From Salmonella phage vB_SenS-3, in the sequence record OR896822.1: a DNA stretch of 64,000 nt; one strand, given 5' to 3'. The position numbers and the translations under genes are program-made. Below, in pieces: positions 37,170 through 49,278 of the stretch. The notes below the pieces were generated by a model. It saw only the letters and a program-made list of their open reading frames with translations. It made no database searches and was not told the origin of the DNA. Each line of letters opens with the position of its first letter. Position 1 is the first letter of the stretch.

Positions 37170-37170
37170 T

Positions 37171-37895: not shown

Positions 37896-37924
37896 TTGCT
37901 TAATATAGAAAATTTCTGTATAAT
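37896..37924 (+). promoter_or_regulatory. sigma70-type early promoter
   Basis: -35 TTGCTT, 17 bp, -10 TATAAT; leader identical to the nadR promoter leader. Confidence 0.6.
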
Positions 37925-37954
37925 ATATTTATAAATTTGAGAGAGGAATCAAAT

Positions 37955-38251: not shown

Positions 38252-38259
38252 AATTTCAC

Positions 38260-38288
38260 TTGCTTAATGCCTAAATTTTCTGTATAAT
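38260..38288 (+). promoter_or_regulatory. sigma70-type early promoter
   Basis: -35 TTGCTT, 17 bp, -10 TATAAT. Confidence 0.6.
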
Positions 38289-38321
38289 ATATTCATAAAT
38301 TTGGAAGATTAGGAACTATTT

Positions 38322-38831: not shown

Positions 38832-38920
38832 GGAAGAATAGCATAACGGTATTGCAGCAGATTGCTAATCTGTCGGTTTGAAACATAGCCTTGTGGGTTC
38901 GATTCCCACTTCTTCCGCCA
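38832..38920 (+). tRNA. tRNA-Ser (anticodon GCT), long variable arm
   Basis: acceptor GGAAGAA/TTCTTCC perfect; anticodon loop TTGCTAA; T-arm GTGGG-TTCGATT-CCCAC; CCA encoded. Confidence 0.8.
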
Positions 38921-38925
38921 AATTT

Positions 38926-39003
38926 GGTTCTCAAGCTCATTTGGTATGAGCCGTCGCCTCATAAGCGAAAGGTAGGTAGGTTCGAATCCTCCGGGAGCCA
39001 CCA
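38926..39003 (+). tRNA. tRNA with CAT anticodon (Met or Ile2)
   Basis: acceptor GGTTCTC/GGGAGCC with G-U pairs; D-stem GCTC/GAGC; anticodon loop CTCATAA; CCA encoded. Confidence 0.7.
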
Positions 39004-39152
39004 GATAACTAGGAGACTTTATGTCACGCTTTCACGAAATTAAGCAAGAACTAGAAGAATGTATGTGTACTGAATGTTGGGGTTCTGGCACTTAATGTTC
39101 CAGTGACTGGATTCCCTGATTGGCTGCAAGGTTACGAACTCTAACAAAATTT

Positions 39153-39238
39153 GGATCTGTGGTGGAATTGGCAATACACACCATGCTTAAAACGTGGCGC
39201 TTAAATGATTGAGGGTTCGAGCCCCTCCAGATCCACCA
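39153..39238 (+). tRNA. tRNA-Leu (anticodon TAA), long variable arm
   Basis: acceptor GGATCTG/CAGATCC perfect; anticodon stem CCATG/CGTGG, loop CTTAAAA; T-arm GAGGG-TTCGAGC-CCCTC; CCA encoded. Confidence 0.8.
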
Positions 39239-39399
39239 AATTAAGGAAGTAAAAATGAAATCTATTAAGAAAGCTATTCGTGAACTTATCCGTTGTCGCT
39301 TCCATAGCATCAAGGCTTCAACTAATGGTACTACTTACGATCGCTACGATCGCTATGATCCTAAGTTTGGCTTACATTCTAAATAACTGGAGAAAACAA

Positions 39400-39606
39400 A
39401 TGGCTAATCCTGAAATTACGGCACAACGTTTTATGCTGAAAGGAATTATTGCTGAAGCAGGCGTGACACAAGAAGTGGAAGATTTCCATAAGCAGTTCCT
39501 AAATATTCTCACTCAAGCCAAAGAGCTAGGAGAGAAAGAACATGGCGCGGCTATTATGGCAATCACATTGGTTGGGCTTGATCTGGCAGAAGAATCAGGA
39601 GTTTAA
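39400..39606 (+). CDS. hypothetical protein
   Basis: start set at internal ATG (MANPEITAQ...) with RBS; upstream part of the listed ORF overlaps tRNA-Leu. Confidence 0.4.
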   Translation: MANPEITAQRFMLKGIIAEAGVTQEVEDFHKQFLNILTQAKELGEKEHGAAIMAITLVGLDLAEESGV

Positions 39607-39636
39607 CTTCTCCAAGCAGAAATTTTAAAAATGTAC

Positions 39637-39666
39637 TTGCTTTTTACTTAAGATTTCTGCTATAAT
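39637..39666 (+). promoter_or_regulatory. sigma70-type early promoter
   Basis: -35 TTGCTT, 18 bp, -10 TATAAT. Confidence 0.55.
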
Positions 39667-39695
39667 AGTTATATAAGTTGATGAGAGGAATCAGA

Positions 39696-39971
39696 ATGTT
39701 AAAACGTTTTGCAGCAACTGGTATTGAAAGCTCAGTATGTAAATCCTGGGGTGGTTGGGAAGGTGAGATCGAGTGGCTTTATTTCTACAATGTAGAACTT
39801 CTTCCAGAGATCAAAGCTCAATGTATTAAGGCTGGTATGGCTCCTGATGCTACGGCTGATGTTGAAATCAGCATGAATAAGCTAGAGGGTCGAGTAGTCA
39901 CTGTTACTGATGAAGGTGAAGAGGTATTCGAACTTCCATTCACTTTGAAAGTCACTCCTTCATTTGATTAA
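39696..39971 (+). CDS. hypothetical protein
   Basis: start at ATG after conserved leader RBS GAGAGGAATCAGA. Confidence 0.5.
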   Translation: MLKRFAATGIESSVCKSWGGWEGEIEWLYFYNVELLPEIKAQCIKAGMAPDATADVEISMNKLEGRVVTVTDEGEEVFELPFTLKVTPSFD

Positions 39972-40008
39972 CTGATACAGCACTTGAGCAAGTTCTTTAA
40001 AATTTGAC

Positions 40009-40038
40009 TTGCTCAAGTGCCTTAAAACTTGATATAAT
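40009..40038 (+). promoter_or_regulatory. sigma70-type promoter heading a tRNA transcription unit
   Basis: -35 TTGCTC, 18 bp, -10 TATAAT; about 120 nt leader then tRNA-Tyr. Confidence 0.55.
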
Positions 40039-40162
40039 AGTTACCTAATTTGGAAACATATCTGAATGAGAAGTAATTAAGCGAGTTGCTTTGAGGGATA
40101 AAGTCAGGATAGCCGGAAATATTCCACCTTGAGTTTAACCGACTTACTTTTCATTCAAATAT

Positions 40163-40243
40163 GGGGGATTGGCTCAGTGGCGACGGCGCCTGGCTGTAGA
40201 CCGGGTATATCACGCGGAGGTTCGAGTCCTCCATCCCCCACCA
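40163..40243 (+). tRNA. tRNA-Tyr (anticodon GTA), long variable arm
   Basis: acceptor GGGGGAT/ATCCCCC perfect; anticodon stem CCTGG/CCGGG, loop CTGTAGA; T-arm GGAGG-TTCGAGT-CCTCC; CCA encoded. Confidence 0.75.
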
Positions 40244-40251
40244 AAATTAAT

Positions 40252-40326
40252 GCACCTATCGTCTAATGGTTAGGACATCAGGATTTCAATCTGAGAATTG
40301 AACTCCGATTCTCCGTGGGTGTGCCA
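40252..40326 (+). tRNA. tRNA-Glu (anticodon TTC)
   Basis: acceptor GCACCTA/TGGGTGT; D-stem GTCT/GGAC; anticodon stem TCAGG/TCTGA, loop ATTTCAA; atypical T-arm; CCA encoded. Confidence 0.6.
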
Positions 40327-40335
40327 ATTAATAAT

Positions 40336-40406
40336 TGGGGTACGCATAGGTTGCTAGTGGGCCTCCAAAACCCATGAAAAGGTTTCGAATACCTTTACCC
40401 CTGCCA
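40336..40406 (+). tRNA. tRNA-Trp (anticodon CCA), atypical
   Basis: T-arm AAGGT-TTCGAAT-ACCTT perfect; acceptor 6 bp with U1/U72 mismatch; anticodon loop CTCCAAA; CCA encoded. Confidence 0.55.
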
Positions 40407-40412
40407 ATATTT

Positions 40413-40487
40413 GCACCTTTAGCTGAGATGGATTAGCGCTTGCCTGAAGAGCTTGAGAGGTTCGTTCAATTCGAACAGGGTGCACCA
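40413..40487 (+). tRNA. tRNA, probable Phe (anticodon GAA); anticodon stem imperfect
   Basis: acceptor GCACCTT/AGGGTGC; T-arm GTTCG-TTCAATT-CGAAC perfect; loop CTGAAGA fits Phe but stem has two U-U mismatches; CCA encoded. Confidence 0.55.
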
Positions 40488-40504
40488 ATTTGAAGGAGAT
40501 GCTG

Positions 40505-40777
40505 ATGCATCCTGAAAACTTCTTTATATACTGTACTAGTCCTTTGCTTAAACGCCGGATTAATAAAGTATATCACTACAGAGCTAGTCAACAGCCTTAT
40601 GTTTATGATTCTAGTGGAGATCATATTCCACTTGAGCAACTAGGGACTGATTATATGGTTTTGAAGCACTTTAATGAGGCGAAGATCTCTAGCGTTCATA
40701 ACCGACAAAACTCTAAAACGTGGTGGCATAAGAAGCGTAAGAAAGGCATCAAATTTCTTAAAAATGTAGTTGCTTAA
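40505..40777 (+). CDS. hypothetical basic protein
   Basis: ATG 40505 six nt after RBS AAGGAG, immediately downstream of the tRNA cluster. Confidence 0.45.
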   Translation: MHPENFFIYCTSPLLKRRINKVYHYRASQQPYVYDSSGDHIPLEQLGTDYMVLKHFNEAKISSVHNRQNSKTWWHKKRKKGIKFLKNVVA

Positions 40778-40798
40778 ATCCTTAAAGTTCTGTATAAT
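40770..40798 (+). promoter_or_regulatory. sigma70-type early promoter
   Basis: -35 TTGCTT, 17 bp, -10 TATAAT; -35 overlaps stop region of 40505..40777. Confidence 0.6.
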
Positions 40799-40826
40799 TA
40801 TTACATAAATTGAACTGGAGAACTAG

Positions 40827-41015
40827 ATGAAAGCACCTAAACCGAAATTAGTTAAGTTCGACTGCTGTGATACTGAAATCTTATTTACTAAGTTTGGTGA
40901 ATTTAAGATGTGTGAATGTGGAACATGTGGTTACGATCATGGTGATGGATATTATTGCAGAACCCTAGGGCCTTCTGAACTAATCCACTTCTCATGGCCG
41001 GAAAGTAAAGAATAA
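40827..41015 (+). CDS. small Cys-rich (zinc-ribbon-like) protein
   Basis: 62 aa; CC...CEC..CGYDH..YC cysteine pattern. Confidence 0.45.
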   Translation: MKAPKPKLVKFDCCDTEILFTKFGEFKMCECGTCGYDHGDGYYCRTLGPSELIHFSWPESKE

Positions 41016-41083
41016 TACGACCGTTGGCTGAATGGCTTAGGCGGAGGCCTGCAAAACCTCCTTATGTGAGTTCGAATCTCATG
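41008..41083 (+). tRNA. tRNA-Cys (anticodon GCA)
   Basis: acceptor CGACCGT/GCGGTCG; anticodon loop CTGCAAA; T-arm GTGAG-TTCGAAT-CTCAT; CCA encoded; 5' end overlaps stop of 40827..41015. Confidence 0.7.
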
Positions 41084-41235
41084 CGGTCGTCCAATTTGCT
41101 GAAAGAATTGTTAAATCAATTCAGGCACGCGTAGGAACACTGCCTCAGTAATTGAAAGATGAGGCACGGTTTGGAGAGGTATGCCGCTACACGCTACGGT
41201 GCTAACTCCGTCTAGGTGAAAATCCTAGTCAGCAA

Positions 41236-41318
41236 TATAAATTTAGGGTCGTTAGCCAAGCGGTTTGGCGGTGGACTGTTAATCCATGTCGAAAGACAAC
41301 GTAGGTTCGAATCCTACA
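41236..41318 (+). tRNA. tRNA with GTT anticodon (Asn-like) and 13-nt variable arm
   Basis: acceptor GGGTCGT/ACGGCCC; anticodon stem GTGGA/TCCAT, loop CTGTTAA; T-arm GTAGG-TTCGAAT-CCTAC perfect; CCA encoded. Confidence 0.6.
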
Positions 41319-41431
41319 CGGCCCGCCATATTCTATGTAGGATTAAGTAAACCGGTAGCCAACCAGCTATCATTACTGATATCGAATTCAGTCACAGATA
41401 CCATTTTTCACTAACAACTGAGGAAATAGAT

Positions 41432-41617
41432 ATGACAACTCGTGCAATTGCTCGACTAGAAGCTGATCGTGATAATCTGATTAATAATATTAAGGTTCGT
41501 GGTAATATTATTAAGGCTCTGAAAGCTGAACTTCTTGAAGAACTTCAAGGTCAAGTAGAGCGTCGTGAAGCTCTAAAAGAGGTTGAGGAAGCTATCGAAA
41601 AACTCAAGGCTGAATAA
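41432..41617 (+). CDS. hypothetical coiled-coil protein
   Basis: 61 aa ORF with RBS GAGGAAA. Confidence 0.45.
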   Translation: MTTRAIARLEADRDNLINNIKVRGNIIKALKAELLEELQGQVERREALKEVEEAIEKLKAE

Positions 41618-41620
41618 ATT

Positions 41621-42202
41621 ATGCACGGAATATCCTTACCCATTCCAGGGTTTGAGGAGTACTTAGTAAGTTTGGATGGGTTAGTATTTAGTATCAAATC
41701 AAACAAAATACTAACCCCAATAACCAGTAATTACGGATACTTATCTATACGTCTCCATAAAAATGGTCAACAGAGAAATACCGGTGTACATAGGATTTTA
41801 GCATGTGCATTTAAGAAATTACCAAGTCTAGACTCTGAACTAGAAGTTGACCATATTAACACAGACATTACTTATTGGGGTCTTAATAACTTACAAGTGC
41901 TCACAAAAGAGCAGCATCTAGAAAAGACTTTAAAAGATAAAGGATTTAGTAAACTAAACCATGATAATTGTTGTAAGGATTGTGGTAAAGCTATTTCTTT
42001 AAAAGCTGAAAAATGTCAGGAGTGCTCTTCACATAAACCAAAAGATATCTCTATAACTAAAGAAATAATCGAGGTTACAGTAAGAGAGCTAGGCTGGTCA
42101 GGTGCAGGGAGAAAGTTAAATTATTCAGATAATGGGTTGCGTAAAAGATACACTTCTTTAGGAGGCAATCCTAAAGAACTTAAAAAGTTAAAGGTACTAT
42201 AG
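41621..42202 (+). CDS. HNH homing endonuclease (NUMOD-like N-terminus)
   Basis: 193 aa; motifs HRILACAF...VDHINTD...NNLQ; Cys-rich C-terminal region; stop codon overlaps 5' end of tRNA-Asp. Confidence 0.7.
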   Translation: MHGISLPIPGFEEYLVSLDGLVFSIKSNKILTPITSNYGYLSIRLHKNGQQRNTGVHRILACAFKKLPSLDSELEVDHINTDITYWGLNNLQVLTKEQHLEKTLKDKGFSKLNHDNCCKDCGKAISLKAEKCQECSSHKPKDISITKEIIEVTVRELGWSGAGRKLNYSDNGLRKRYTSLGGNPKELKKLKVL

Positions 42203-42267
42203 TCTAACGGTTAGGATACTCCCCTGTCACGGGAGAGGTAGGGTTTCGATTACCCTTAGTACCGCCA
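42193..42267 (+). tRNA. tRNA-Asp (anticodon GTC)
   Basis: acceptor GGTACTA/TAGTACC perfect; anticodon stem CTCCC/GGGAG, loop CTGTCAC; T-arm AGGGT-TTCGATT-ACCCT; CCA encoded. Confidence 0.85.
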
Positions 42268-42273
42268 AATTAT

Positions 42274-42350
42274 ACATCCATAGCTCAACTGGTCAGAGCT
42301 ACCGCCTCTTAAGCGGAGGGTTGAAGGTTCAAGTCCTTCTGGGAGTACCA
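42274..42350 (+). tRNA. tRNA-Lys (anticodon CTT)
   Basis: D-stem GCTC/GAGC; anticodon loop CTCTTAA; T-arm GAAGG-TTCAAGT-CCTTC; acceptor with one A-A mismatch; CCA encoded. Confidence 0.65.
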
Positions 42351-42553
42351 AACAAATAGAGTAAAGGCTACAGTAGGTGCACCCTTACGGACTGCTACAC
42401 CGGACTCTATTCATTAACAAACATTCTAGCGTGGTGGAGAGGGGACACCAGCTGTGCGAGGGTAGAAGCTTGTTCGATTCAAGTGAAAGAATGGTTCTCG
42501 TAAATCCGCAGCAGTGATAGTAGGTTCAAGTCCTACCTAGATTGACTTATTAT

Positions 42554-42627
42554 GCGTTCGTAGTTAAAAGGTATAATTTTTGGTTGCCAACCAGAAGTTG
42601 AGGGTTCGATTCCCTCCGACCGCACCA
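42554..42627 (+). tRNA. tRNA-Gly (anticodon GCC)
   Basis: T-arm GAGGG-TTCGATT-CCCTC; acceptor GCGTTCG/CGACCGC (one mismatch); anticodon stem TTTGG/CCAGA, loop TTGCCAA; CCA encoded. Confidence 0.65.
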
Positions 42628-42878
42628 AATTTAGGTTTCTGCTTCCTAGAGAACGGACTCCTAGATAAACAAGGCGATGAGTTTCCGGCCGGTTCTAGTC
42701 GCTGAAAATCCTCCCGACCAGGTAGGTGTAGGTAAACGAAAGTTTACTTATTGAGTAGGTTCCGATAGATCGGCGGATCTATTCTGGCATTTAAGAGAAG
42801 TCTCGCAAACTTCTTTGTCAGCAGAGCGTTTGAAGCGTGAGGTGGCCTACACAATAAGTAAATTTATTAAAAACTCAT

Positions 42879-42907
42879 TTGCTATTTCACTTAATTCTCT
42901 TTATAAT
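42879..42907 (+). promoter_or_regulatory. sigma70-type promoter heading a tRNA transcription unit
   Basis: -35 TTGCTA, 17 bp, -10 TATAAT; tRNA-Pro begins about 33 nt downstream. Confidence 0.6.
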
Positions 42908-42939
42908 ATATCTTATAAAGTGAGTTAACAAAGAATATT

Positions 42940-43017
42940 CTCCGTGTAGCTCAGTTTGGCCAGAGCGTTCCGTTTGGGGCGGTAGGGTCGGGGGTTCAAA
43001 TCCTCCCACGGAGACCA
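42940..43017 (+). tRNA. tRNA-Pro (anticodon TGG)
   Basis: acceptor CTCCGTG/CACGGAG perfect; D-stem GCTC/GAGC; anticodon loop TTTGGGG; T-arm GGGGG-TTCAAAT-CCTCC; CCA encoded. Confidence 0.8.
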
Positions 43018-43023
43018 AACAAT

Positions 43024-43101
43024 TGCGGGTTAGATCTCTGGTAGAGATCGCTAGTCTCATAAGCTAGAAAGAGGTAGGTTAGATTCCTACACCCGCTTCC
43101 A
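43024..43101 (+). tRNA. tRNA with CAT anticodon (Met or Ile2), U1/U72 mismatch
   Basis: D-stem GATC/GATC; anticodon stem CTAGT/GCTAG, loop CTCATAA; T-arm GTAGG-TTAGATT-CCTAC; CCA encoded. Confidence 0.7.
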
Positions 43102-43120
43102 ATTTAATAGAGGATACGAA

Positions 43121-43285
43121 ATGAAATTATTTCGATTGGTAGTAAGTGATAGACGGTCTAGCAAAGATCGTTCGAAGTATACCTTAGCCCATTATGGGAA
43201 AGATGAAAATGAAGTAATGGCTGAATTTGGTATTAATCATCGCTACTTAGAAGTTTACTCTATTAAGGAAGTTTATCCGTATTAA
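43121..43285 (+). CDS. small hypothetical protein (54 aa) between tRNAs
   Basis: ATG-initiated ORF found by eye (not in the six-frame list, under 60 aa); ends at the nucleotide before tRNA-Lys. Confidence 0.3.
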   Translation: MKLFRLVVSDRRSSKDRSKYTLAHYGKDENEVMAEFGINHRYLEVYSIKEVYPY

Positions 43286-43363
43286 GGGTCGTTAGCTCAA
43301 TTGGTTAGTAGCACTTGCCTTTTAAGCAATAGGTTGAAGGTTCGAGTCCTTCACGACCCACCA
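43286..43363 (+). tRNA. tRNA-Lys (anticodon TTT)
   Basis: acceptor GGGTCGT/ACGACCC perfect; anticodon loop CTTTTAA; T-arm GAAGG-TTCGAGT-CCTTC; CCA encoded. Confidence 0.8.
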
Positions 43364-43372
43364 AATTACTTT

Positions 43373-43446
43373 GCTCGGTTAGTTTAATGGGAGAACCCCG
43401 TCTTTACACGGCGGTTGCGATAGTTCGATTCTATCACCGAGTACCA
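43373..43446 (+). tRNA. tRNA-Val (anticodon TAC)
   Basis: acceptor GCTCGGT/ACCGAGT; anticodon stem CCGTC/GGCGG, loop TTTACAC; T-arm GATAG-TTCGATT-CTATC; CCA encoded. Confidence 0.75.
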
Positions 43447-43471
43447 ATTAACTCAAAATAAGGAATTGCAA

Positions 43472-43825
43472 ATGCAATTATCAAGCAAGATTCAAGGCTA
43501 TTTTGGTCATGTAACAATGGAGTTCGCTATCTCTAAAGGTTGGGATTTCGAGCAAGATCTAGCTGAGTTCTACAAAGATATTGATCTGAACGTACCATAC
43601 ATGGGACTCTCCACTGGTCAAGAGATCACAGAAGGCGATGTGTTCAAGGCAAGTCAAGGTGAGGTAACACCTAGTTTTGCCAAGTTCTGGTTAGGACTTA
43701 CTTTGAAGGAAGATGCACCAGAGGATGGTGTGGTTATGCAGAGTATGCACTCTGGAAGCTCTGATTACCTTTTCGTTAGCGACGTTAAGGAACTACAAGA
43801 AATCGCTAAAAATGTACTTGCTTGA
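43472..43825 (+). CDS. hypothetical protein
   Basis: ATG 43472 after RBS AAGGAA (listed ORF starts at TTG 43466); acidic protein. Confidence 0.5.
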   Translation: MQLSSKIQGYFGHVTMEFAISKGWDFEQDLAEFYKDIDLNVPYMGLSTGQEITEGDVFKASQGEVTPSFAKFWLGLTLKEDAPEDGVVMQSMHSGSSDYLFVSDVKELQEIAKNVLA

Positions 43826-43846
43826 TGCTTAATTTCTTGTTATAAT
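43818..43846 (+). promoter_or_regulatory. sigma70-type promoter overlapping the 3' end of CDS 43472..43825
   Basis: -35 TTGCTT, 17 bp, -10 TATAAT; leader then forms an 8-bp hairpin GATGAGGA/TCCTCATC. Confidence 0.55.
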
Positions 43847-44108
43847 ATTTATATAAATTGATGAGGAGAAATCCTCATCAAAGTTCACTAAGGTATTAGC
43901 TCGACCTAGGGCTGGCTGCCAAAAAGCACAATTGCAATTAGACCCCTAATGGCGGGGGATACTTTGCAATAAGTTCTAGATTAGTCCACTAGATTCAGTG
44001 GCAACTGAATAGTGTATCGGGTTTGTGAAGAGCGGTTATCCTCTACTGGCTAATGTCTGAGGGTAATACGCACACCGAGCTAATAGCCTTAGTAAACTTA
44101 AAGATTTT

Positions 44109-44187
44109 GGGGAATGGGTCTGCTTGGAGTGGACACCTCGCTTGCACCGAGGATATCAGAAGAGTTCGAATCTCTTATTCTCCACCA
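44109..44187 (+). tRNA. tRNA-Ala (anticodon TGC), copy 1
   Basis: acceptor with G3-U70 wobble pair (Ala identity element); anticodon stem CCTCG/CGAGG, loop CTTGCAC; CCA encoded. Confidence 0.65.
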
Positions 44188-44192
44188 AATTC

Positions 44193-44268
44193 GGGGTCAT
44201 AGGTTATTTGGTTAAACTTACTGCCTTGCAAGCAGTGGAACTCAGTTCAATTCTGAGTGACTCCACCA
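44193..44268 (+). tRNA. tRNA-Ala (anticodon TGC), copy 2
   Basis: acceptor GGGGTCA/TGACTCC with G3-U70; anticodon stem ACTGC/GCAGT, loop CTTGCAA; T-arm CTCAG-TTCAATT-CTGAG; CCA encoded. Confidence 0.75.
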
Positions 44269-44287
44269 AACAAATTAAGGAAATAAT

Positions 44288-44506
44288 ATGGTATTCTTAG
44301 CAGCCTCTGTAGTTCTTGCAGCTTTAGCACTAGCTATCTATTTTAGAACTATTAAAGATTTAGCTAAAGAAAAGAAAACTTTCTTTACTGATTATTCTTG
44401 GGGCGCTCCATATAACGTCCGCTTTATCAGCTTAGAAGCTATGCTGATAATGGTATTCAGTGGCATAGGTTCCATTGTTGCAGGGTTACTATTTATTTCT
44501 AACTAA
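44288..44506 (+). CDS. small membrane protein
   Basis: 72 aa with two hydrophobic helices. Confidence 0.45.
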   Translation: MVFLAASVVLAALALAIYFRTIKDLAKEKKTFFTDYSWGAPYNVRFISLEAMLIMVFSGIGSIVAGLLFISN

Positions 44507-44513
44507 ATAAAAT

Positions 44514-44594
44514 GGGGATGTGGCGAAATTGGCAGACGCGCTAGATTTAGGTTCTAGTCTTCGGGTGTGGGTTCGAGTCCCTCCATCCCTACCA
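44514..44594 (+). tRNA. tRNA-Leu (anticodon TAG), long variable arm
   Basis: acceptor GGGGATG/CATCCCT; anticodon stem CTAGA/TCTAG perfect, loop TTTAGGT; T-loop TTCGAGT; CCA encoded. Confidence 0.7.
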
Positions 44595-44768
44595 AACATT
44601 GGATTAACTCATGATGAAAACTCCTATAACTGATATCTGGTTAGCTGTTAATACATCAACTAAAGAGTATGTGTTTATAGAGTATGGTCAGAGGTATGAC
44701 CAAAAGATGTATAATCTCATACTTCCAGTATCTGCTAATGAAGTTTATGATTTAATCCTGAGATCTAC

Positions 44769-44861
44769 GGAAGAGCAAATCGATTAGGTGACGAAAACCG
44801 CTTGGAAAGTGGCTGACTTGTTAAAGCAGGCTTGAGAATTCGAATCTCTCTTCTTCCGCCA
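44769..44861 (+). tRNA. tRNA-Ser (anticodon GGA), long variable arm
   Basis: acceptor GGAAGAG/TTCTTCC; anticodon loop TTGGAAA; T-loop TTCGAAT; CCA encoded; 93 nt. Confidence 0.6.
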
Positions 44862-44882
44862 AACAACTAATAGGGAATATAA

Positions 44883-45125
44883 ATGAAAGTCAAGATTATG
44901 ATGTTGGATTTAGCTAATGATAAGTTTTTCTTGCGTCATACATTCCCTAGTAAGCAAGCTTTAGAGTTTCATATCAAGTACGCAATAGGCATGAAACTTC
45001 CTGAGCGAGAAATATTTGATAAAGCATGTGATACTGGAGTTATTTATGTATGGCAAACAACCTATCATGATAATCCAGAAGATCTTCGAAAAGAAGTAGA
45101 ACAAATACTAGAAGATAGGACGTAG
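44883..45125 (+). CDS. hypothetical protein
   Basis: 80 aa ORF; 3' end overlaps the start of tRNA-Ser(TGA). Confidence 0.5.
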   Translation: MKVKIMMLDLANDKFFLRHTFPSKQALEFHIKYAIGMKLPEREIFDKACDTGVIYVWQTTYHDNPEDLRKEVEQILEDRT

Positions 45126-45199
45126 TGGTATGTAACCGGTCTTGAAAACCGGCCCGCTGTAGTGATACGGTGATGGTTCGACTCCATTATCTTCTGCCA
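45109..45199 (+). tRNA. tRNA-Ser (anticodon TGA), long variable arm
   Basis: acceptor AGAAGAT/ATCTTCT perfect; anticodon stem CCGGT/ACCGG perfect, loop CTTGAAA; T-arm GATGG-TTCGACT-CCATT; CCA encoded. Confidence 0.75.
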
Positions 45200-45524
45200 A
45201 ATCTTGAAGTATGCCGGAATCGGTAGACGGGGCTTCCTAAAGGGCGTAAGGGGAACATCCACTCCTCATAAGATACCCGAAAACGAGGCTGAGATAACTG
45301 GTCTATCTCGTGAAGGTTCGAGTCCTTCTGCTTCTTGATATTCATCAATGGCTCAAAGTGTAACGGTGCTATTTGATGCTCTTAGTAAGACTTTCCCGAC
45401 ATGCGTTCGGGAGTAAGCTGCTAAGGCTAGAGTAGAAGAGTTTCGGAGAGCCGCCACAATTGAAGTCTTTAGAATGGGTATCGCCCTTTAGCCCCTCCGA
45501 AAGGGATAACTAGAGATTTCAATT

Positions 45525-45601
45525 GTGGTTATATCATAATTGGTTAATGATCCTGATTGTGAATCAGGCCTATGTGGATTCGAATTCCACTAACCACCCC
45601 A
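45525..45601 (+). tRNA. tRNA-His (anticodon GTG)
   Basis: acceptor GTGGTTA/TAACCAC perfect; D-stem TCAT/ATGA; anticodon stem CCTGA/TCAGG, loop TTGTGAA; T-arm GTGGA-TTCGAAT-TCCAC; CCA encoded. Confidence 0.85.
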
Positions 45602-45607
45602 AATATT

Positions 45608-45682
45608 GCGTCCTTATTTCAATGGAAAGAATGTAAAGCTACGAACTTTACGATCGGGGTTCGATTCCCTGAGGATGCACCA
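45608..45682 (+). tRNA. tRNA-Arg (anticodon ACG)
   Basis: acceptor GCGTCCT/AGGATGC; anticodon stem TAAAG/CTTTA perfect, loop CTACGAA; T-loop TTCGATT; CCA encoded. Confidence 0.75.
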
Positions 45683-45706
45683 ATTAACTTATACAGGAAC
45701 TAAAAT

Positions 45707-45907
45707 ATGGCTGATTTCTGCAAAGAATGCTCTATCGATATGTGGGGCAAAGATACTGGTGATCTTTCTGGTCTGATTACAGAAGCCGAAGTTAAAGAAG
45801 GCTATGGTGCTGTTGTAATCTGTGAAGGTTGTGGTATTATTCGTGTTGACCATAATGGTAAACGTCTAGAAGAACCAGATCCAATTGCCACGGTTCCTGT
45901 AGAATAA
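45707..45907 (+). CDS. small Cys-rich protein
   Basis: 66 aa; CKEC...CEGC cysteine pairs (zinc-ribbon-like). Confidence 0.45.
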   Translation: MADFCKECSIDMWGKDTGDLSGLITEAEVKEGYGAVVICEGCGIIRVDHNGKRLEEPDPIATVPVE

Positions 45908-45914
45908 AAATTAT

Positions 45915-45990
45915 TGGGATGTAGATCAATTGGCAGATCGTCGGCCTCTGACTCCGAAGGTTCCACGTTCGATCCGTGGCATCCCAGCCA
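45915..45990 (+). tRNA. tRNA-Gln (anticodon CTG)
   Basis: acceptor TGGGATG/CATCCCA perfect; D-stem GATC/GATC; anticodon loop CTCTGAC; T-arm CCACG-TTCGATC-CGTGG; CCA encoded. Confidence 0.7.
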
Positions 45991-45996
45991 AACAAT

Positions 45997-46072
45997 TGGA
46001 GAGTAGTGTAACGGTTAGCACAACGGCCTTTGACTCCGTTAATGGTAGGTTCGATTCCTCCTTCTCCAGCCA
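45997..46072 (+). tRNA. tRNA-Gln (anticodon TTG)
   Basis: acceptor TGGAGAG/TTCTCCA; anticodon stem ACGGC/TCCGT, loop CTTTGAC; T-loop TTCGATT; CCA encoded. Confidence 0.65.
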
Positions 46073-46078
46073 ATTTAT

Positions 46079-46153
46079 GCGTGATTAGTTCAGTGGCTAG
46101 AATAACTGGCTTCCAACCAGTAGACACGAGTTCGACTCTCGTATCCCGCACCA
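46079..46153 (+). tRNA. tRNA-Gly (anticodon TCC)
   Basis: anticodon stem ACTGG/CCAGT perfect, loop CTTCCAA; T-arm ACGAG-TTCGACT-CTCGT perfect; CCA encoded. Confidence 0.75.
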
Positions 46154-46169
46154 AATATAAGGAAACGTT

Positions 46170-46391
46170 ATGGACGTTTTTGAGTTTCGTAATAAAAACC
46201 CCAATAGACGAGTTTTAATTATTGGTGAAACATATAGAGCTTATGAGCAAGAAGATGGTTCGGTTTTATTAAATGATGAAAAACAAGGCTATAGCTTTCA
46301 TCCAGAAGAAACATATGAAGAATTTCGTACTAAGTTTCTTTTACCAGACTGGCTAGCAATAGCTGAGCAAAGAGAATCCAAAGATGGCTGA
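46170..46391 (+). CDS. hypothetical protein
   Basis: 73 aa ORF with RBS AAGGAAA. Confidence 0.45.
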   Translation: MDVFEFRNKNPNRRVLIIGETYRAYEQEDGSVLLNDEKQGYSFHPEETYEEFRTKFLLPDWLAIAEQRESKDG

Positions 46392-46535
46392 TAATCTAAA
46401 GCTAAAAGTAGATAAACGAATGAAGTGCGTTGAGGTTGAGTTGGGTGAAGAACGTTTAAAACTCTCCTTCGAATTCTTACAGCAGTTGGCTATGACAGTA
46501 ATGTCTGATAAGTCTCCTGTATTTGAAAAAGAAAT

Positions 46536-46558
46536 CCCGTTGAAATAACGGGTTTATT
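46536..46558 (+). terminator. putative terminator hairpin just upstream of tRNA-Thr
   Basis: CCCGTT-GAAATA-AACGGG hairpin followed by TTTATT. Confidence 0.45.
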
Positions 46559-46632
46559 GCTCCTAAAGCATTGCTGGCGATGCAGTTGCCTTGTAAGCAT
46601 CTGAACCGGGTTCGATTCCTGGTGGGAGCACC
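46559..46632 (+). tRNA. tRNA-Thr (anticodon TGT)
   Basis: acceptor GCTCCTA/TGGGAGC; D-stem GCAT/ATGC; anticodon loop CTTGTAA; T-arm CCGGG-TTCGATT-CCTGG; CCA encoded. Confidence 0.75.
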
Positions 46633-46647
46633 AAATTTAAAAATTCA

Positions 46648-46677
46648 TTTGCCTTCTCTCTTATTTCTTGTTATAAT
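46648..46677 (+). promoter_or_regulatory. sigma70-type early promoter
   Basis: -35 TTGCCT, 18 bp, -10 TATAAT, conserved leader. Confidence 0.55.
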
Positions 46678-46707
46678 ATTTATATAAATTAATGAGAGGG
46701 AAACCAA

Positions 46708-47001
46708 ATGAAACGTTATCTTTCTGTCGTATTCCAAACGGGTGGTCAACGCTACACTTATGAATTTCCTGAGTCCTGGAAAATTAAAGAAGGTGATCAA
46801 GTTGTTGTATTAACACCTCGTGAAGGCTTCAAAGTAGTAACGGTTAAACAAGTATTTCCAAAAGATCACGAACCATCTAAGTCTATTCAGTACAAGATGA
46901 TTCATGGTCTAGTTCGTAAAGTACCACGAACTGAGGTAGAAGTAGATAAGACTGGTGAAGCTAAATACCAGTATACTTCTTACTTAGACGAGTTGTTATA
47001 A
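46708..47001 (+). CDS. hypothetical protein
   Basis: 97 aa ORF with conserved leader RBS. Confidence 0.5.
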   Translation: MKRYLSVVFQTGGQRYTYEFPESWKIKEGDQVVVLTPREGFKVVTVKQVFPKDHEPSKSIQYKMIHGLVRKVPRTEVEVDKTGEAKYQYTSYLDELL

Positions 47002-47207
47002 TGAGAATTACTTTCACAGAAAAGATTATGGGCAATGGTGTTATGATCATTACCGCATGGGATGGTAATCAGTGGTGTAGTGTTTCAGGTATTAAGCCTG
47101 AAGAACAAACACTAGAAAATATCTCAAAGATTAAGCGAAGAATGGCAGAACGTGCACGACTTCCAGGTGCTCCTAGAAATGGTAAACGTTCTGCAATTAA
47201 ATGTTAA
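47001..47207 (+). CDS. hypothetical protein
   Basis: 68 aa ORF; start overlaps previous stop (ATGA). Confidence 0.45.
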   Translation: MRITFTEKIMGNGVMIITAWDGNQWCSVSGIKPEEQTLENISKIKRRMAERARLPGAPRNGKRSAIKC

Positions 47208-47208
47208 T

Positions 47209-47285
47209 GCTTCGGTAGCTTAGCGATCTAAAGCACTCGGCTGATAACCGAGAGATCGGGGGTTTAAATCCCTCCCGGAGTACCA
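47209..47285 (+). tRNA. tRNA-Ile (anticodon GAT)
   Basis: acceptor GCTTCGG/CCGGAGT with G-U pairs; D-stem GCTT/AAGC; anticodon stem CTCGG/CCGAG perfect, loop CTGATAA; CCA encoded. Confidence 0.75.
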
Positions 47286-47381
47286 AATTTAGGAAGTAAG
47301 ACTATGCGTCCAGGAAAGTTTAAAAAAGCTAATTGGTCTAAAGAGTATAAAGAATACTTACTTAGTCTAGTAAAACATAAT

Positions 47382-47454
47382 AGTTAGTTGGCAGAGAGGT
47401 TATGCACCTCCTTCATACGGAGCGCCTACAGTGGTTCAAATCCACTACTAACTA
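47382..47454 (+). tRNA. tRNA with CAT anticodon (Met or Ile2)
   Basis: acceptor AGTTAGT/ACTAACT perfect; anticodon loop TTCATAC; T-arm AGTGG-TTCAAAT-CCACT perfect; CCA not encoded. Confidence 0.65.
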
Positions 47455-47821
47455 CTAAACAGAGGATCAGATCATTGTACCAGATCCTGCTGAGAAGAGA
47501 GTCCACATTCTATAAATGGCCGGGCGTGACAGCAGGAAGTAGACTGCAACTCCATGCTATACAGGAGTATAAATGTAGAAGCTAGGGCTTTAGATAGCCA
47601 TTGTCTTAGCGTGAGCAATCACGTAGTTGCAACAGACCAGGGGATAGCAACGTTAAAATCAAAGCTCCTGTGCTTATTAAACTGAATGGGACTATCAATC
47701 CACAAGCCGGACTACGAGCGATTATCGGGTATTCACTTAATAAGCAAGCCTGCCTTCCAGTTTTTATCTTGCTTCTGGGTTAACAAAAAGCTGAGCCAAA
47801 TTCTAGCATCAGGGAGATCTA

Positions 47822-48190
47822 ATGAAAGCATATCAAAGTCTTAAGTCTGGCGTAATTAACCTTGTTCATAACAATCAGATCATTCAACTATATTCTAAAG
47901 ATGGTGAACTTAAACAGAAAGTTCTAGTCGAAGATCTAGAAGGTATCACACCTCACTTTGACCCTGAGGCCTTTCGCATTGTAGATGTGGAAGTGATTCC
48001 TCAAGTCGAGGGTGGTCAGCACCTAAATGTCAACGTGTTAAGCCGTGATCAGCTTTTGGATGCACAGAAACATCCTGAAAAATATCCTCAGTTGACCATC
48101 CGTGTCTCTGGATATGCTGTTCGATTTAACGCATTGACGCGTGAACAACAGAACGACGTTATTAGTCGTACATTTACTCAGGCGATATAA
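47822..48190 (+). CDS. grcA: GrcA/YfiD-like autonomous glycyl radical cofactor protein
   Basis: C-terminal [12 protein letters not shown]...[37 protein letters not shown] closely matches E. coli GrcA and the PFL C-terminal glycyl-radical domain. Confidence 0.8.
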
Positions 48191-48271
48191 TGGGGTTTGG
48201 ATATGATTTCTCCCAGCTACGCAAGGTAGTCGAGCAAACTCCATTTATCTCCCAAGTTTTAGGAGAAATGT

Positions 48272-48571
48272 GTGGATCGAGCATTAAGACGCCATCACCG
48301 GCAACGTGTGAAAAACAATCGCAAAAAGTATTGGACAGTCTTCCCACATGAAGAAAGTCCTAAGCGGTTAGGCATTATCACTACCACTCCTTGCATCTGT
48401 TCTTGTTGGATGTGTGGGAATCCTCGCAAATACTATAAGAATAGTAAAGCAGGTATGAAAATCTCGGAGATTAAAAAGATGGATGCAATGATTATGGGCA
48501 TCACCTTTACAGGCGGTATCTCTGATGAATTCGACGGTTTTGTAACTCAGGATATTGTCGAAATTATCTAA
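48272..48571 (+). CDS. hypothetical protein
   Basis: 99 aa ORF, basic N-terminus. Confidence 0.45.
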   Translation: MDRALRRHHRQRVKNNRKKYWTVFPHEESPKRLGIITTTPCICSCWMCGNPRKYYKNSKAGMKISEIKKMDAMIMGITFTGGISDEFDGFVTQDIVEII

Positions 48572-48582
48572 TTAATAATAAA

Positions 48583-48616
48583 CCCCAGCTATTGAATAGG
48601 TAGTCTGGGGTTTTCT
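48583..48616 (+). terminator. rho-independent terminator
   Basis: CCCCAG...CTGGGG hairpin followed by TTTTCTTG. Confidence 0.55.
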
Positions 48617-48638
48617 TGTAGTATGTAGGATTTTCGAA

Positions 48639-48824
48639 ATGAAAATTTTTAAAGTGAACTATAGCGGCCTGTGGTTAGGTGGTACAGCTATTGTCGTTGC
48701 AGAAACTGCAGAAGAAGCAATCGAACTGGCTAGAAACCATAGAAGTTCTATAGAATTCGAGGATGTGACAGTAGAAGAACTCCCGAGCAGTGGGGTAGTA
48801 TACAACGACAACGGAGATTACTGA
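48639..48824 (+). CDS. hypothetical protein
   Basis: 61 aa ORF. Confidence 0.4.
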   Translation: MKIFKVNYSGLWLGGTAIVVAETAEEAIELARNHRSSIEFEDVTVEELPSSGVVYNDNGDY

Positions 48825-48882
48825 TGTTATATTTTGAAGTTCGCCCACATTAAGTTAATTTAAAAGACTTAATGGAGGTAAT

Positions 48883-49278
48883 ATGAGCCGTACATATCGT
48901 AAACAATCTGGTGATCGTCACTGGCGTGATGCACATCGTTCTACTTATAATTTTCATAGCACTAATATCCGTATTCCGTATATCTACACGGATAGGGATG
49001 GTAGGCAGTGGAAGTATTATCAAGTTCGATCCAATGAAGCATGGGCTAAAACTTGGGATGAAATTGAGAAGGAGATTCAGGAAAATATCATCCGTAACGA
49101 GAAGAAAGATGGGCACTGGTGGGATTCTGTTAGTAGGAATGTTAAGTGGCATTCTAACAAAATGGTTCGTCAGGGAAACCGTCGCGAACTTCATCGTGTG
49201 ATGAAAGATCCAGAAAATTACGACTATAATCGCGATCATGATCTGCGTAAGCGTGGGTTATGGTGGTGCTACGACTAA
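48883..49278 (+). CDS. hypothetical protein
   Basis: 131 aa, Arg/Trp-rich; RBS GGAGG. Confidence 0.5.
   Translation: MSRTYRKQSGDRHWRDAHRSTYNFHSTNIRIPYIYTDRDGRQWKYYQVRSNEAWAKTWDEIEKEIQENIIRNEKKDGHWWDSVSRNVKWHSNKMVRQGNRRELHRVMKDPENYDYNRDHDLRKRGLWWCYD

What the first reader, a model, noticed from the sequence alone, without database searches (positions are those of the whole stretch)
45200..45524. Orphan T-arm and an 11-bp long-range inverted repeat upstream of tRNA-His
A canonical T-arm GAAGG-TTCGAGT-CCTTC at 45312-45328 has no convincing acceptor partner. Further on, CCACAATTGAA (45454-45464) pairs with TTCAATTGTGG (45518-45528, overlapping the 5' end of tRNA-His) around a nested CCCTTT/AAAGGG stem. 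This could be a structured RNA or a processing signal that controls tRNA-His maturation.
Basis: seen in the sequence. Interest (0 to 1): 0.45.

Follow-up and report, generated by a model that had tools for sequence, protein, structure and literature searches.

The report
Phage T5 stable RNAs before tRNA-His
The "orphan" T-arm belongs to a complete tRNA-like RNA, and the inverted repeat is the closing stem of a second small RNA; both match the long-annotated but functionally unexplained stable RNAs of phage T5 (RNA1, RNA I, RNA III), so the features are real but not new.

Summary
Both sequence observations are correct, but the T-arm is not orphan. Window 45205-45336 folds into a full class-II tRNA-like cloverleaf. 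It has an acceptor stem, a Leu-like D-arm, a long variable arm and a T-arm. The anticodon loop is replaced by a 48-nt hairpin extension. Across 24 variants, 13 of 33 base pairs show compensatory changes.

The 11-bp inverted repeat is the base of a 19-bp helix (45454-45472 / 45510-45528). Five unrelated insert variants (4-115 nt) all keep this helix at 18-20 bp.

GenBank records for T5, T5 st0, phage 5 and BF23 already annotate this interval as three genes. These are rna1 ("tRNA-like stable RNA with unknown functions"), rnaI and rnaIII ("stable RNA with unknown functions"). The window holds homologues of RNA1 (45203-45349) and RNA I (45350-45456), plus a short positional variant of RNA III (45461-45523).

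The region is therefore a run of structured small RNAs cut out of the tRNA-cluster transcript. The helix is most likely a processing stem. The ends annotated in T5 leave a 2-nt 3' overhang, which suggests RNase III, and give a tRNA-His that starts at U-1. That mechanism is inferred, not shown.

Novelty: already known. Function is still open.

The parts
45110..45199 (+). tRNA-Ser(UGA), the upstream neighbour; ends in encoded GCCA
   Evidence: ARAGORN; same synteny as T5 tRNAS1
45203..45349 (+). Homologue of T5 rna1 ('tRNA-like stable RNA with unknown functions'), using the extent of the T5 annotation
   Evidence: blastn of T5 RNA1 against the window gives 80.3% identity over 147 nt; T5, phage 5 and BF23 annotations
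45205..45336 (+). tRNA-like core of RNA1. Acceptor stem 45205-45211 / 45329-45335 (U1.U72 mismatch). D-arm 45214-45230 (loop GAATCGGTAGA, Leu-like). Anticodon-stem equivalent 45232-45236 / 45285-45289. Variable arm 45291-45309. T-arm 45312-45328. Position 73 = T at 45336. No encoded CCA.
   Evidence: ARAGORN -i. Covariation: 96.6% of cells paired and 13 of 33 pairs with double changes, against 43-53% paired and at most 4 such pairs when the partners are slid. RNAfold MFE of the T5 copy gives the same cloverleaf.
45237..45284 (+). 48-nt extension that replaces the anticodon loop. Stem GGG/CCC 45242-45244 / 45276-45278. Stem GGGG/CCTC 45250-45253 / 45264-45267. Apical loop AACATCCACT 45254-45263.
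   Evidence: Both stems covary: GGGG/CCTC, AGGG/CCCT, TAGG/CCTA, GCAG/CTGC, AAGG/CCTT. The 10-nt loop is identical in all 24 aligned variants. The alignment set was collected with patterns that require this loop, so the invariance is partly by construction. One T5 record, AY543070, has A->G in the loop.
45312..45328 (+).
45350..45456 (+). Homologue of T5 rnaI (RNA I, 107 nt). It has 5' GGCTC paired with GAGCC, then an encoded GCCA 3' end. The internal body is the 'alpha' variant.
   Evidence: blastn gives 91.6% identity over 107/107 nt. RNAalifold consensus with 5 covarying pairs. T5 annotation.
45457..45460 (+). CAAT spacer between the RNA I 3' CCA and the RNA III 5' end, by homology with the T5 annotation
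45461..45523 (+). Positional equivalent of T5 rnaIII (63 nt here, 106 nt in T5). The body is unrelated to T5's; only the flanks and the closing helix are shared.
   Evidence: No blastn match for the T5 RNAIII body. Invariant flanks and five insert variants.
45454..45472 (+). 5' arm of the 19-bp closing helix. It includes the CCA end of RNA I.
45510..45528 (+). 3' arm of the 19-bp closing helix. It includes U-1 (45524) and G1-G4 of tRNA-His.
45484..45505 (+). Nested CCCTTT / AAAGGG hairpin inside the window-type RNA III body. An alternative pair of 4-bp hairpins has similar predicted stability.
   Evidence: Only three near-identical copies were seen, so there is no covariation test.
45525..45601 (+). 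tRNA-His(GUG). It has G1-C72, C73 and encoded CCA. Position -1 is T, so there is no encoded G-1.
   Evidence: ARAGORN and Rfam at 59.8 bits. T5 records annotate a 78-nt tRNA-His that starts at U-1.

Best explanation
Window 45203-45523 encodes three consecutive small structured RNAs that lie inside the phage's tRNA-cluster transcript, between tRNA-Ser(UGA) and tRNA-His. They correspond to the stable RNAs annotated in phage T5.

(1) RNA1 is a class-II, tRNA-Leu-like molecule. Its anticodon loop is replaced by a conserved 48-nt hairpin with an invariant 10-nt apical loop. It has no anticodon and no encoded CCA, so it is a tRNA mimic rather than a decoding tRNA.

(2) RNA I is a bent hairpin with an acceptor-like end (GGCUC/GAGCC plus GCCA).

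(3) RNA III is a variable cassette closed by an invariant helix of about 19 bp. That helix pairs the RNA I 3' trailer with the tRNA-His leader and the first four nucleotides of tRNA-His.

Shown here: the structures, their covariation, their conservation across about 490 T5-like phage genomes, and their identity with the T5 annotations.

Inferred: host nucleases cut the units apart. The tRNA-like and hairpin-plus-CCA ends serve as RNase P sites. The 19-bp helix serves as a double-strand processing stem. The ends annotated in T5 (RNA III 5' at U8 of the 5' arm; RNA III 3' end two nucleotides beyond its pairing partner) are those of a staggered RNase III-type cut. Such a cut would release RNA I with a 4-nt trailer, RNA III, and a tRNA-His carrying a single 5' extra nucleotide (U-1). 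I put RNase III at about 0.35 for this step and RNase P acting on a hairpin-like substrate at about 0.35.

The trans function of RNA1 is unknown. The invariant loop, and the retention of RNA1 as a free-standing module in Klebsiella and Pectobacterium phages, argue that it is more than a processing by-product.
For: Identity. AY692264, AY543070, AJ604531 and AJ604530 annotate rna1, rnaI and rnaIII in the same order between tRNA-Ser1 and tRNA-His, with the notes quoted above. blastn gives 80% identity for RNA1 and 92% for RNA I. The window is identical to Salmonella phage RA40 here.

RNA1 structure. ARAGORN -i calls it in the window and in all 24 variants. 96.6% of cells are paired, 13 of 33 pairs show double changes, and 0 of 500 shuffles reach the observed values; slid controls give 43-53% paired. 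A covariance model of RNA1 scores the window's two tRNA-Leu genes next best, at 37 and 30 bits.

Not a decoding tRNA. There is no Rfam tRNA hit at E<=10. The 'anticodon' and the insert position are inconsistent among variants: aaa, taa, aac. 26 of 28 tRNAs in the window encode CCA and RNA1 does not.

Helix. It is 18-20 bp in five insert variants whose inserts range from 4 to 115 nt. 96.8% of cells are paired and 9 of 19 pairs show double changes, against 33-46% paired when slid.

Ends. The T5 and phage 5 annotations give RNA I ending in GCCA, a 4-nt gap, RNA III with a 2-nt 3' overhang, and a 78-nt tRNA-His that starts with U-1.

Precedents. E. coli RNase P cleaves hairpin-like phage RNAs (PMC5499578). 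A role for RNase III in T4 tRNA synthesis is cited as McClain 1979 in PMC4810235.

RNA1 as an independent module. Klebsiella phages keep the core at about 92% identity in a different context and with a compensated acceptor stem.
Against: No expression or end-mapping data for this phage were available. The RNA ends come from GenBank annotations whose experimental basis I could not read, because the original 1980s papers are not in the searchable library.

The annotated tRNA-His start at U-1 may be a convention rather than a measurement.

Pectobacterium phage Arno162 also has T at -1 of its tRNA-His but no upstream helix. So a helix is not needed to make such a tRNA.

The lower 4 bp of the helix compete with tRNA-His's own acceptor stem. 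The invariance of CCA and GTGG is already explained by RNA I and tRNA-His themselves.

The helix alignment (A3) was assembled by hand from arms taken in register.

The RNA1 sequences come from closely related phages, so some covariation counts are inherited rather than independent events. Their collection required the apical loop sequence, which weakens the 'invariant loop' argument.
Confidence: 0.8

Rival explanations
1. The closing helix is not an RNase III site. RNase P makes both cuts: at the 5' end of RNA III, treating the long helix with its short 3' tail as a hairpin-like substrate, and at the 5' end of tRNA-His. The helix only stabilises RNA III.
For: E. coli RNase P processes hairpin-like RNAs such as 4.5S RNA, phi80 M3, P4 CI and P1/P7 C4 (PMC5499578). 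RNA I, RNA2H and RNAIV of T5 also have a terminal helix with a 2-4 nt 3' tail. Arno162 makes a tRNA-His with T at -1 without any helix.
Against: A leader that is fully base-paired up to -1 is a poor RNase P substrate; sequestering the leader blocks cleavage (abstract of PMC7897497, listed). RNase P does not explain a constant helix length of 18-20 bp across inserts of 4-115 nt. It also does not explain the exact 2-nt stagger.
Confidence: 0.35
2. RNA1 is a decoy or sponge. It is a class-II tRNA look-alike that occupies host tRNA-directed enzymes, such as tRNA-cleaving defence nucleases or modification or processing enzymes, without entering translation.
For: The tRNA body (elbow, variable arm, acceptor) is intact while the anticodon loop is missing. 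It is kept as a free-standing module in phages of several host genera: about 492 records, including Klebsiella and Pectobacterium phages. The tRNA-rich region of T5-like phages is known to counter tRNA-targeting defences: PARIS (PMC11464382), retron-Eco7 and PrrC (PMC11555353). A bacterial Schlafen cleaves tRNAs during T5 infection (PMC13056530).
Against: No experiment links RNA1 to any defence system. The rescuing activities found so far were ordinary tRNAs (tRNA-Lys, tRNA-Tyr). No target complementary to the loop was found in the window.
Confidence: 0.2
3. 45205-45336 is a genuine intron-containing tRNA gene (one record, OK272480, annotates the homologue as tRNA-Leu) that is spliced to a functional class-II tRNA.
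For: ARAGORN -i returns a tRNA with a 41-nt 'intron'. A tRNA-Leu annotation exists in phage JLBYU40. The RNA1 model scores tRNA-Leu genes best after itself.
Against: The predicted anticodon and insert position change among variants: aaa at 35 or 37, taa at 33, aac at 39. The insert is a conserved, covarying hairpin with an invariant loop, not a spacer. At 41 nt it is far too short for a group I intron, and by inspection it has no bulge-helix-bulge geometry. CCA is not encoded, unlike 26 of 28 tRNAs here. The T5 annotators describe a stable tRNA-like RNA of 144 nt, that is, unspliced.
Confidence: 0.03
4. The region is protein-coding or non-functional spacer: small ORFs, as annotated in several phage genomes, or a decayed tRNA pseudogene plus a chance inverted repeat.
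For: Hypothetical CDSs are laid over it in phages rutana, SB13 and Riker. ORFs of 20-65 aa exist on both strands.
Against: Substitutions are compensatory in stems rather than frame-preserving. The 22-aa ORF at 45348-45416 is replaced by unrelated sequence in the beta variant of RNA I, while the RNA ends are kept. The helix is kept through five different inserts.
Confidence: 0.02

Closest known systems
Phage T5 rna1 / RNA1 ('tRNA-like stable RNA with unknown functions'; GenBank AY543070, AY692264, AJ604531, AJ604530)
   Same: Same position directly after tRNA-Ser(UGA) and before RNA I. 80% identity over the full length. Same cloverleaf with an extended anticodon arm. Same apical loop AACATCCACT.
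   Different: The window carries a different sequence type of the extension stems (GGG/CCC and GGGG/CCTC, against AGG/CCT and TAGG/CCTA in T5) and of the acceptor stem, all compensated. The small ORF T5p061 that precedes RNA1 in T5 is absent.
Phage T5 rnaI / RNA I (107-nt stable RNA)
   Same: 92% identical, the same 107 nt, the same GGCUC/GAGCC terminal stem and encoded GCCA end.
   Different: Only point differences. Other relatives carry a 100-nt 'beta' body between the same ends.
Phage T5 rnaIII / RNA III (106-nt stable RNA that abuts tRNA-His)
   Same: Same position, same invariant flanks CCACAATTGA / TCAATTGTGG, and same closing helix of about 19 bp.
   Different: The body is unrelated and shorter: 63 nt with one or two small hairpins, against a 106-nt four-way junction in T5. 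There is no blastn match. It is a positional and structural variant, not a sequence homologue.
Class-II bacterial tRNA (tRNA-Leu type)
   Same: Acceptor stem, 3-bp D-stem with a GAAUYGGUAGA loop, long variable arm, and a T-arm with the TTCRA motif. The RNA1 model scores tRNA-Leu genes best after itself.
   Different: No 7-nt anticodon loop, no anticodon, no encoded CCA, a U1.U72 mismatch and U73. Not recognised by the Rfam tRNA model or by default ARAGORN.
RNase III processing stems that flank 16S/23S rRNA and phage early transcripts
   Same: A long-range helix of about two turns, formed by sequences on either side of an RNA, with (by annotation) cuts on both strands staggered by 2 nt.
   Different: It excises a small RNA of variable content, and its 3' arm runs into a tRNA. 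Dependence on RNase III is untested.
Phage T4 stable RNAs in the tRNA cluster (species 1 and 2, rnaC/rnaD). This comparison is from my own knowledge and was not tested here.
   Same: Small stable RNAs of unknown function that are co-transcribed with phage tRNAs and matured by the host tRNA-processing enzymes.
   Different: No sequence comparison was made. Different phage family.

Membership tests
T5 RNA1 (tRNA-like stable RNA) | Full-length sequence homology to T5 rna1 | tested here: met
   80.3% over 147 nt, E 1e-32; 492 phage records match at 60-100% identity
T5 RNA1 (tRNA-like stable RNA) | Same gene order: tRNA-Ser(UGA) - RNA1 - RNA I - RNA III - tRNA-His | tested here: met
T5 RNA1 (tRNA-like stable RNA) | Shared cloverleaf with an extended anticodon arm, maintained by compensatory changes | tested here: met
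T5 RNA1 (tRNA-like stable RNA) | Accumulates as a stable RNA in infected cells | not testable with these tools
   Only the GenBank note 'stable RNA' for T5
T5 RNA I | Sequence homology and an acceptor-like end with encoded GCCA | tested here: met
   91.6% over 107/107 nt; terminal stem invariant in 23 sequences
T5 RNA III | Sequence homology of the RNA body | tested here: not met
   No blastn match at E<=1e-3; the body differs
T5 RNA III | Position next to tRNA-His, with the invariant flanks and the closing helix | tested here: met
Canonical tRNA (Rfam RF00005 / ARAGORN default) | Recognised by tRNA models; 7-nt anticodon loop with an anticodon | tested here: not met
   No Rfam match at E<=10 in 45200-45524; ARAGORN default finds none; the loop is replaced by a 48-nt hairpin
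Canonical tRNA (Rfam RF00005 / ARAGORN default) | Acceptor, D, variable and T arms | tested here: met
Canonical tRNA (Rfam RF00005 / ARAGORN default) | 3' CCA encoded, as in the other tRNAs of this cluster | tested here: not met
   26 of 28 tRNAs encode CCA; RNA1 reads CTTCT-TGAT
Intron-containing tRNA | Conserved anticodon and a fixed insert position across homologues | tested here: not met
   aaa/taa/aac, with the insert at 33, 35, 37 or 39
Intron-containing tRNA | Recognisable splicing apparatus: a group I core, or a bulge-helix-bulge motif | tested here: not met
   41 nt is too short for group I; no Rfam intron hit; by inspection the internal loops are 5/6 and 5/8 nt, not 3-nt bulges around a 4-bp helix
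tmRNA | tRNA-like domain plus a tag reading frame | tested here: not met
   ARAGORN -m finds nothing; no Rfam hit
RNase III processing stem | Helix of about 20 bp or more formed by long-range pairing | tested here: met
   18-20 bp in five variants
RNase III processing stem | Cleavage on both strands that leaves 2-nt 3' overhangs | tested here: inconclusive
   The ends annotated in T5 and phage 5 fit, but their experimental basis could not be checked
RNase III processing stem | Cleavage depends on rnc | not testable with these tools
   -

The most novel reading that the evidence does not exclude
The invariant 19-bp helix is a measuring device for RNase III. Its staggered cut, one nucleotide upstream of G1, gives the phage tRNA-His the extra 5' nucleotide (here U-1, with its 5' phosphate) that histidyl-tRNA synthetase needs. 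This would work although the gene lacks the usual G-1 and although RNase P would be expected to remove an unpaired -1 base. A double-strand nuclease would then replace RNase P in setting a tRNA identity element, and the variable RNA III cassette would be a by-product of that device.
Probability: 0.12. Interest if true: 0.6.

Novelty: already known. Interest (0 to 1): 0.3.

Why it matters
The practical value is in annotation. About 490 T5-like phage genomes carry RNA1, and nearly all either leave it unannotated or cover it with hypothetical ORFs. A few records (T5, T5 st0, phage 5, BF23) name these RNAs.

On the biology, the function of these RNAs is still listed in current GenBank records as unknown. 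The tRNA-rich region of T5-like phages has recently been shown to be an anti-defence locus. A conserved class-II tRNA mimic without an anticodon is therefore a reasonable candidate to test against tRNA-targeting immune systems.

The constant-length helix in front of a tRNA-His gene that lacks G-1 gives a concrete, cheap experiment on tRNA-His 5' end formation.

Tried and rejected
- Rfam search at E<=10 over 44600-46000: only the flanking tRNAs, nothing in 45200-45524.
- ARAGORN in default, pseudogene, tmRNA and mitochondrial modes: nothing.
- Search for an antisense target of the RNA1 apical loop in the window: no matches beyond chance.
- Local alignment of RNA1's two halves against the 28 tRNAs of the window: no close parent. 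The best match is the T-arm region of tRNA-Tyr. The covariance model ranks the tRNA-Leu genes first instead.
- Promoter and terminator scan: counts at the level of shuffled sequence. The T-arm itself was flagged as terminator-like.
- ORF listing: only short overlapping ORFs.
- Seven literature searches for the original T5 stable-RNA papers, for any recent work on these RNAs, and for tRNA-His U-1: no paper in the library describes RNA1, RNA I or RNA III.
- Two IMG/VR pattern scans. About half of the loci returned were chance matches in unrelated contigs and were discarded by eye.
- Search for RNA1 in the first 50 kb of Vibrio T5-like phage pVp-1 with the covariance model: only ordinary class-II tRNAs.
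- The idea that a helix is required for a tRNA-His with T at -1 was weakened by phage Arno162.

Full report
**Context.** The window is the tRNA-rich region of a T5-like phage of the Demerecviridae. Positions 45100-45700 are 100% identical to Salmonella phage RA40, and 549 phage records match this stretch. ARAGORN finds 28 tRNA genes on the + strand. Among them are tRNA-Ser(UGA) at 45110-45199 and tRNA-His at 45525-45601, with nothing called between them.

**Checking the observation.** The motif GAAGG-TTCGAGT-CCTTC is at 45312-45328. CCACAATTGAA (45454-45464) is the exact reverse complement of TTCAATTGTGG (45518-45528). CCCTTT (45484-45489) and AAAGGG (45500-45505) lie between the two arms.

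The repeat finder extends the repeat to 19-nt arms, 45454-45472 / 45510-45528. Complementarity is 89% Watson-Crick, and the other two positions are G-U pairs. A perfect 11-mer inverted repeat with a 3-100 nt loop is expected about twice per 64 kb in first-order Markov (dinucleotide-frequency-matched) random sequence. The 11-mer alone is therefore weak evidence. The 19-bp helix and its conservation carry the case.

**The T-arm belongs to a complete tRNA-like gene.** When ARAGORN is allowed an insert in the anticodon loop, it calls a gene at 45205-45336, and it is the only such call in 32000-49000. Its parts are:
- an acceptor stem TGAAGTA / TGCTTCT, paired at 6 of 7 positions with a U1.U72 mismatch;
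- a 3-bp D-stem with the loop GAATCGGTAGA, which I recognise as typical of bacterial tRNA-Leu;
- a 5-bp anticodon-stem equivalent;
- a 6-bp variable arm with a 7-nt loop;
- the T-arm.

In place of the 7-nt anticodon loop there are 48 nt (45237-45284). They form two further stems (GGG/CCC and GGGG/CCTC) separated by internal loops and capped by the loop AACATCCACT.

I collected 24 distinct homologues from GenBank and IMG/VR records: T5, Salmonella and Escherichia phages, Klebsiella phage Riker, and Pectobacterium phage DU_PP_V. On this alignment the proposed structure pairs 96.6% of cells. Thirteen of 33 pairs show changes on both sides, spread over the acceptor stem, the anticodon-stem equivalent, both extension stems and the variable arm. 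Sliding the 3' partners by 1-3 columns gives only 43-53% pairing and at most 4 such pairs.

The 10-nt apical loop is identical in all 24 sequences, while the 4-bp stem beneath it occurs as GGGG/CCTC, AGGG/CCCT, TAGG/CCTA, GCAG/CTGC and AAGG/CCTT, among others. The collecting patterns required this loop sequence, so its invariance is partly by construction. One T5 record, AY543070, has an A-to-G change in it.

**RNA1 is not a decoding or spliced tRNA.**
- The Rfam tRNA model gives no match at E<=10.
- The anticodon and insert position that ARAGORN proposes differ among variants: aaa, taa and aac, with the insert at 33, 35, 37 or 39.
- 26 of the 28 tRNAs in the window encode a 3' CCA, but this gene continues CTTCT-TGAT.
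- A covariance model built from the 24 sequences scores the window copy at 158 bits. Next come the phage's two tRNA-Leu genes at 37 and 30 bits, which fits an origin from a class-II, Leu-type tRNA.

**This is already annotated in T5.** The T5 st0 record AY692264 lists, between tRNA-Ser1 and tRNA-His, a small CDS and three misc_RNA genes. These are rna1 (144 nt), rnaI (107 nt) and rnaIII (106 nt).
- AY543070 adds the notes "tRNA-like stable RNA with unknown functions" for rna1, and "stable RNA with unknown functions" for rnaI and rnaIII.
- The phage 5 record AJ604531 and the BF23 record AJ604530 carry the same genes.
- blastn of the T5 features against the window maps RNA1 to 45203-45349 (80%) and RNA I to 45350-45456 (92%). 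The body of RNA III finds nothing.
- Most other genomes leave the region blank or lay hypothetical CDSs over it. One calls RNA1 a tRNA-Leu.
- I could not find the original papers in the searchable library. From memory they are from the Bayev and Ksenzenko group in the early 1980s; that is not a checked citation.

**RNA I.** The window copy is 107 nt. It starts GGCTC and ends GAGCC-GCCA, which gives an acceptor-like 5-bp stem with an encoded CCA tail. Two internal versions exist among relatives: alpha (107 nt, as in the window) and beta (100 nt). Both sit between identical ends, and hairpins in each version show compensatory changes. The 22-codon ORF at 45348-45416 is not preserved in the beta version.

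**The inverted repeat is the closing helix of RNA III.** Between the CCA of RNA I and tRNA-His, relatives carry five unrelated inserts. These range from a 4-nt loop in Salmonella phage S124, through the window type and the T5 type, to two larger types of 107 and 115 nt.
- All five keep the flanks CCACAATTGA / TCAATTGTGG. In S124 the flank G-C pair is changed to A-U on both sides.
- All five continue the helix with different sequence to a total of 19, 19, 18, 19 and 20 bp.
- On a hand-made alignment of the arms, 96.8% of cells pair and 9 of 19 pairs show double changes. Slid controls give 33-46% pairing.

The helix, and in particular its length, is therefore the conserved feature. The enclosed RNA is exchangeable. 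The nested CCCTTT/AAAGGG hairpin exists only in the window-type insert. It has an alternative fold of similar predicted stability, and there is no variation to test it with.

**How it probably works.** The annotated T5 and phage 5 ends place the following:
- the RNA I 3' end on the A of CCA (window 45456);
- the RNA III 5' end four nucleotides later (45461);
- the RNA III 3' end at 45523;
- the start of a 78-nt tRNA-His at U-1 (45524).

In the helix, 45461 pairs with 45521, so RNA III ends with a 2-nt 3' overhang. The two cuts are staggered as in an RNase III product. They lie 7 bp from the base of the helix and 11-13 bp from its inner end in every variant.

I therefore favour a double-strand processing stem. 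It would simultaneously free three products: RNA I, whose CAAU trailer is then trimmed to CCA; RNA III; and a tRNA-His with a one-nucleotide leader.

This is inference from annotation and geometry. The main rival is RNase P acting on hairpin-like substrates, which E. coli RNase P is known to accept (PMC5499578). A role for RNase III in T4 tRNA synthesis has been reported (cited in PMC4810235).

One result counts against a special link to tRNA-His. Phage Arno162 also has T at -1 of its tRNA-His but no upstream helix.

**What RNA1 does is not known.** Three points argue for a function beyond being a processing by-product:
- it keeps an intact tRNA body;
- the apical loop is conserved above a freely covarying stem;
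- it persists as a stand-alone module in Klebsiella phages, at about 92% identity to the window type, with a different but compensated acceptor stem and away from tRNA-His, and also in a Pectobacterium phage.

A tRNA mimic that engages tRNA-directed host enzymes or defence nucleases is an attractive reading. The tRNA-rich region of T5-like phages counters PARIS, retron-Eco7 and PrrC. There is no direct evidence for this reading. In the first 50 kb of the Vibrio T5-like phage pVp-1, the model finds only ordinary class-II tRNAs.

**Verdict.** The "orphan T-arm" premise is wrong, and the elements are already named in the T5 reference annotations. Novelty: already known. Interest is modest, because the function of these RNAs remains open and two cheap experiments would address it.

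Noticed in passing
window 45524-45601: The tRNA-His gene has T, not G, at position -1, together with C73 and an encoded CCA. The T5 and phage 5 records annotate a 78-nt tRNA-His that begins with this U-1. Pectobacterium phage Arno162 (L085, position 143) also has T at -1, whereas Erwinia phage Omen (L086, position 143) has G-1:C73.
   Followed up: partly
window 42422-42546, 42755-42853, 43894-44028: Homologues of three further T5 misc_RNA genes: rna2 (84%; also tRNA-like, with a T-arm and acceptor stem), RNAIV (89%) and RNA2H (77%, partial). All three are multi-branch folds closed by a terminal helix with a short 3' tail in T5.
   Followed up: partly
window 33482-33555 and 47382-47455: These are the only two ARAGORN tRNA calls of 28 that lack an encoded 3' CCA: 'tRNA-SeC(tca)' and a tRNA-Met(cat). 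They may be tRNA-like RNAs or miscalls rather than ordinary tRNAs.
   Followed up: no
L083 (Salmonella phage STP-SP9) about 240-370; loci L001, L021, L053, L081: The three RNAs reassort as cassettes. RNA1 sequence types, RNA I alpha and beta bodies, and five RNA III inserts occur in different combinations. STP-SP9 has an extra element of about 130 nt between RNA1 and RNA I.
   Followed up: partly
L002 1494-1626 (Klebsiella phage Riker ER52): The Klebsiella T5-like phages hold the RNA1 core at about 92% identity to the window type, which is closer than T5's own copy at 80%. Their acceptor stem is different and extends to about 14 bp, and the genomic context differs. This suggests horizontal exchange of the module.
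   Followed up: partly
L001 799-1005; L081 569-775; L002 1432-1560: Hypothetical-protein CDSs in published phage annotations (rutana_119, SB13 gp185, Riker CDS0091) overlap RNA1, RNA I or RNA III and are probably spurious. Phage JLBYU40 (OK272480) annotates RNA1 as tRNA-Leu.
   Followed up: partly
window 34016-34055, 37876-37925, 39980-40020, 41481-41514, 41678-41717: Several other perfect inverted repeats of 12-18 nt with short loops lie in the tRNA-rich region, well above the shuffled expectation. They may be terminators or further processing hairpins.
   Followed up: no
L078 (AY543070) RNA1 against L003 (AY692264): The two T5 records differ at one base of the otherwise invariant RNA1 apical loop: AACATCCGCT against AACATCCACT. 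This is either a strain difference or a sequencing error.
   Followed up: no
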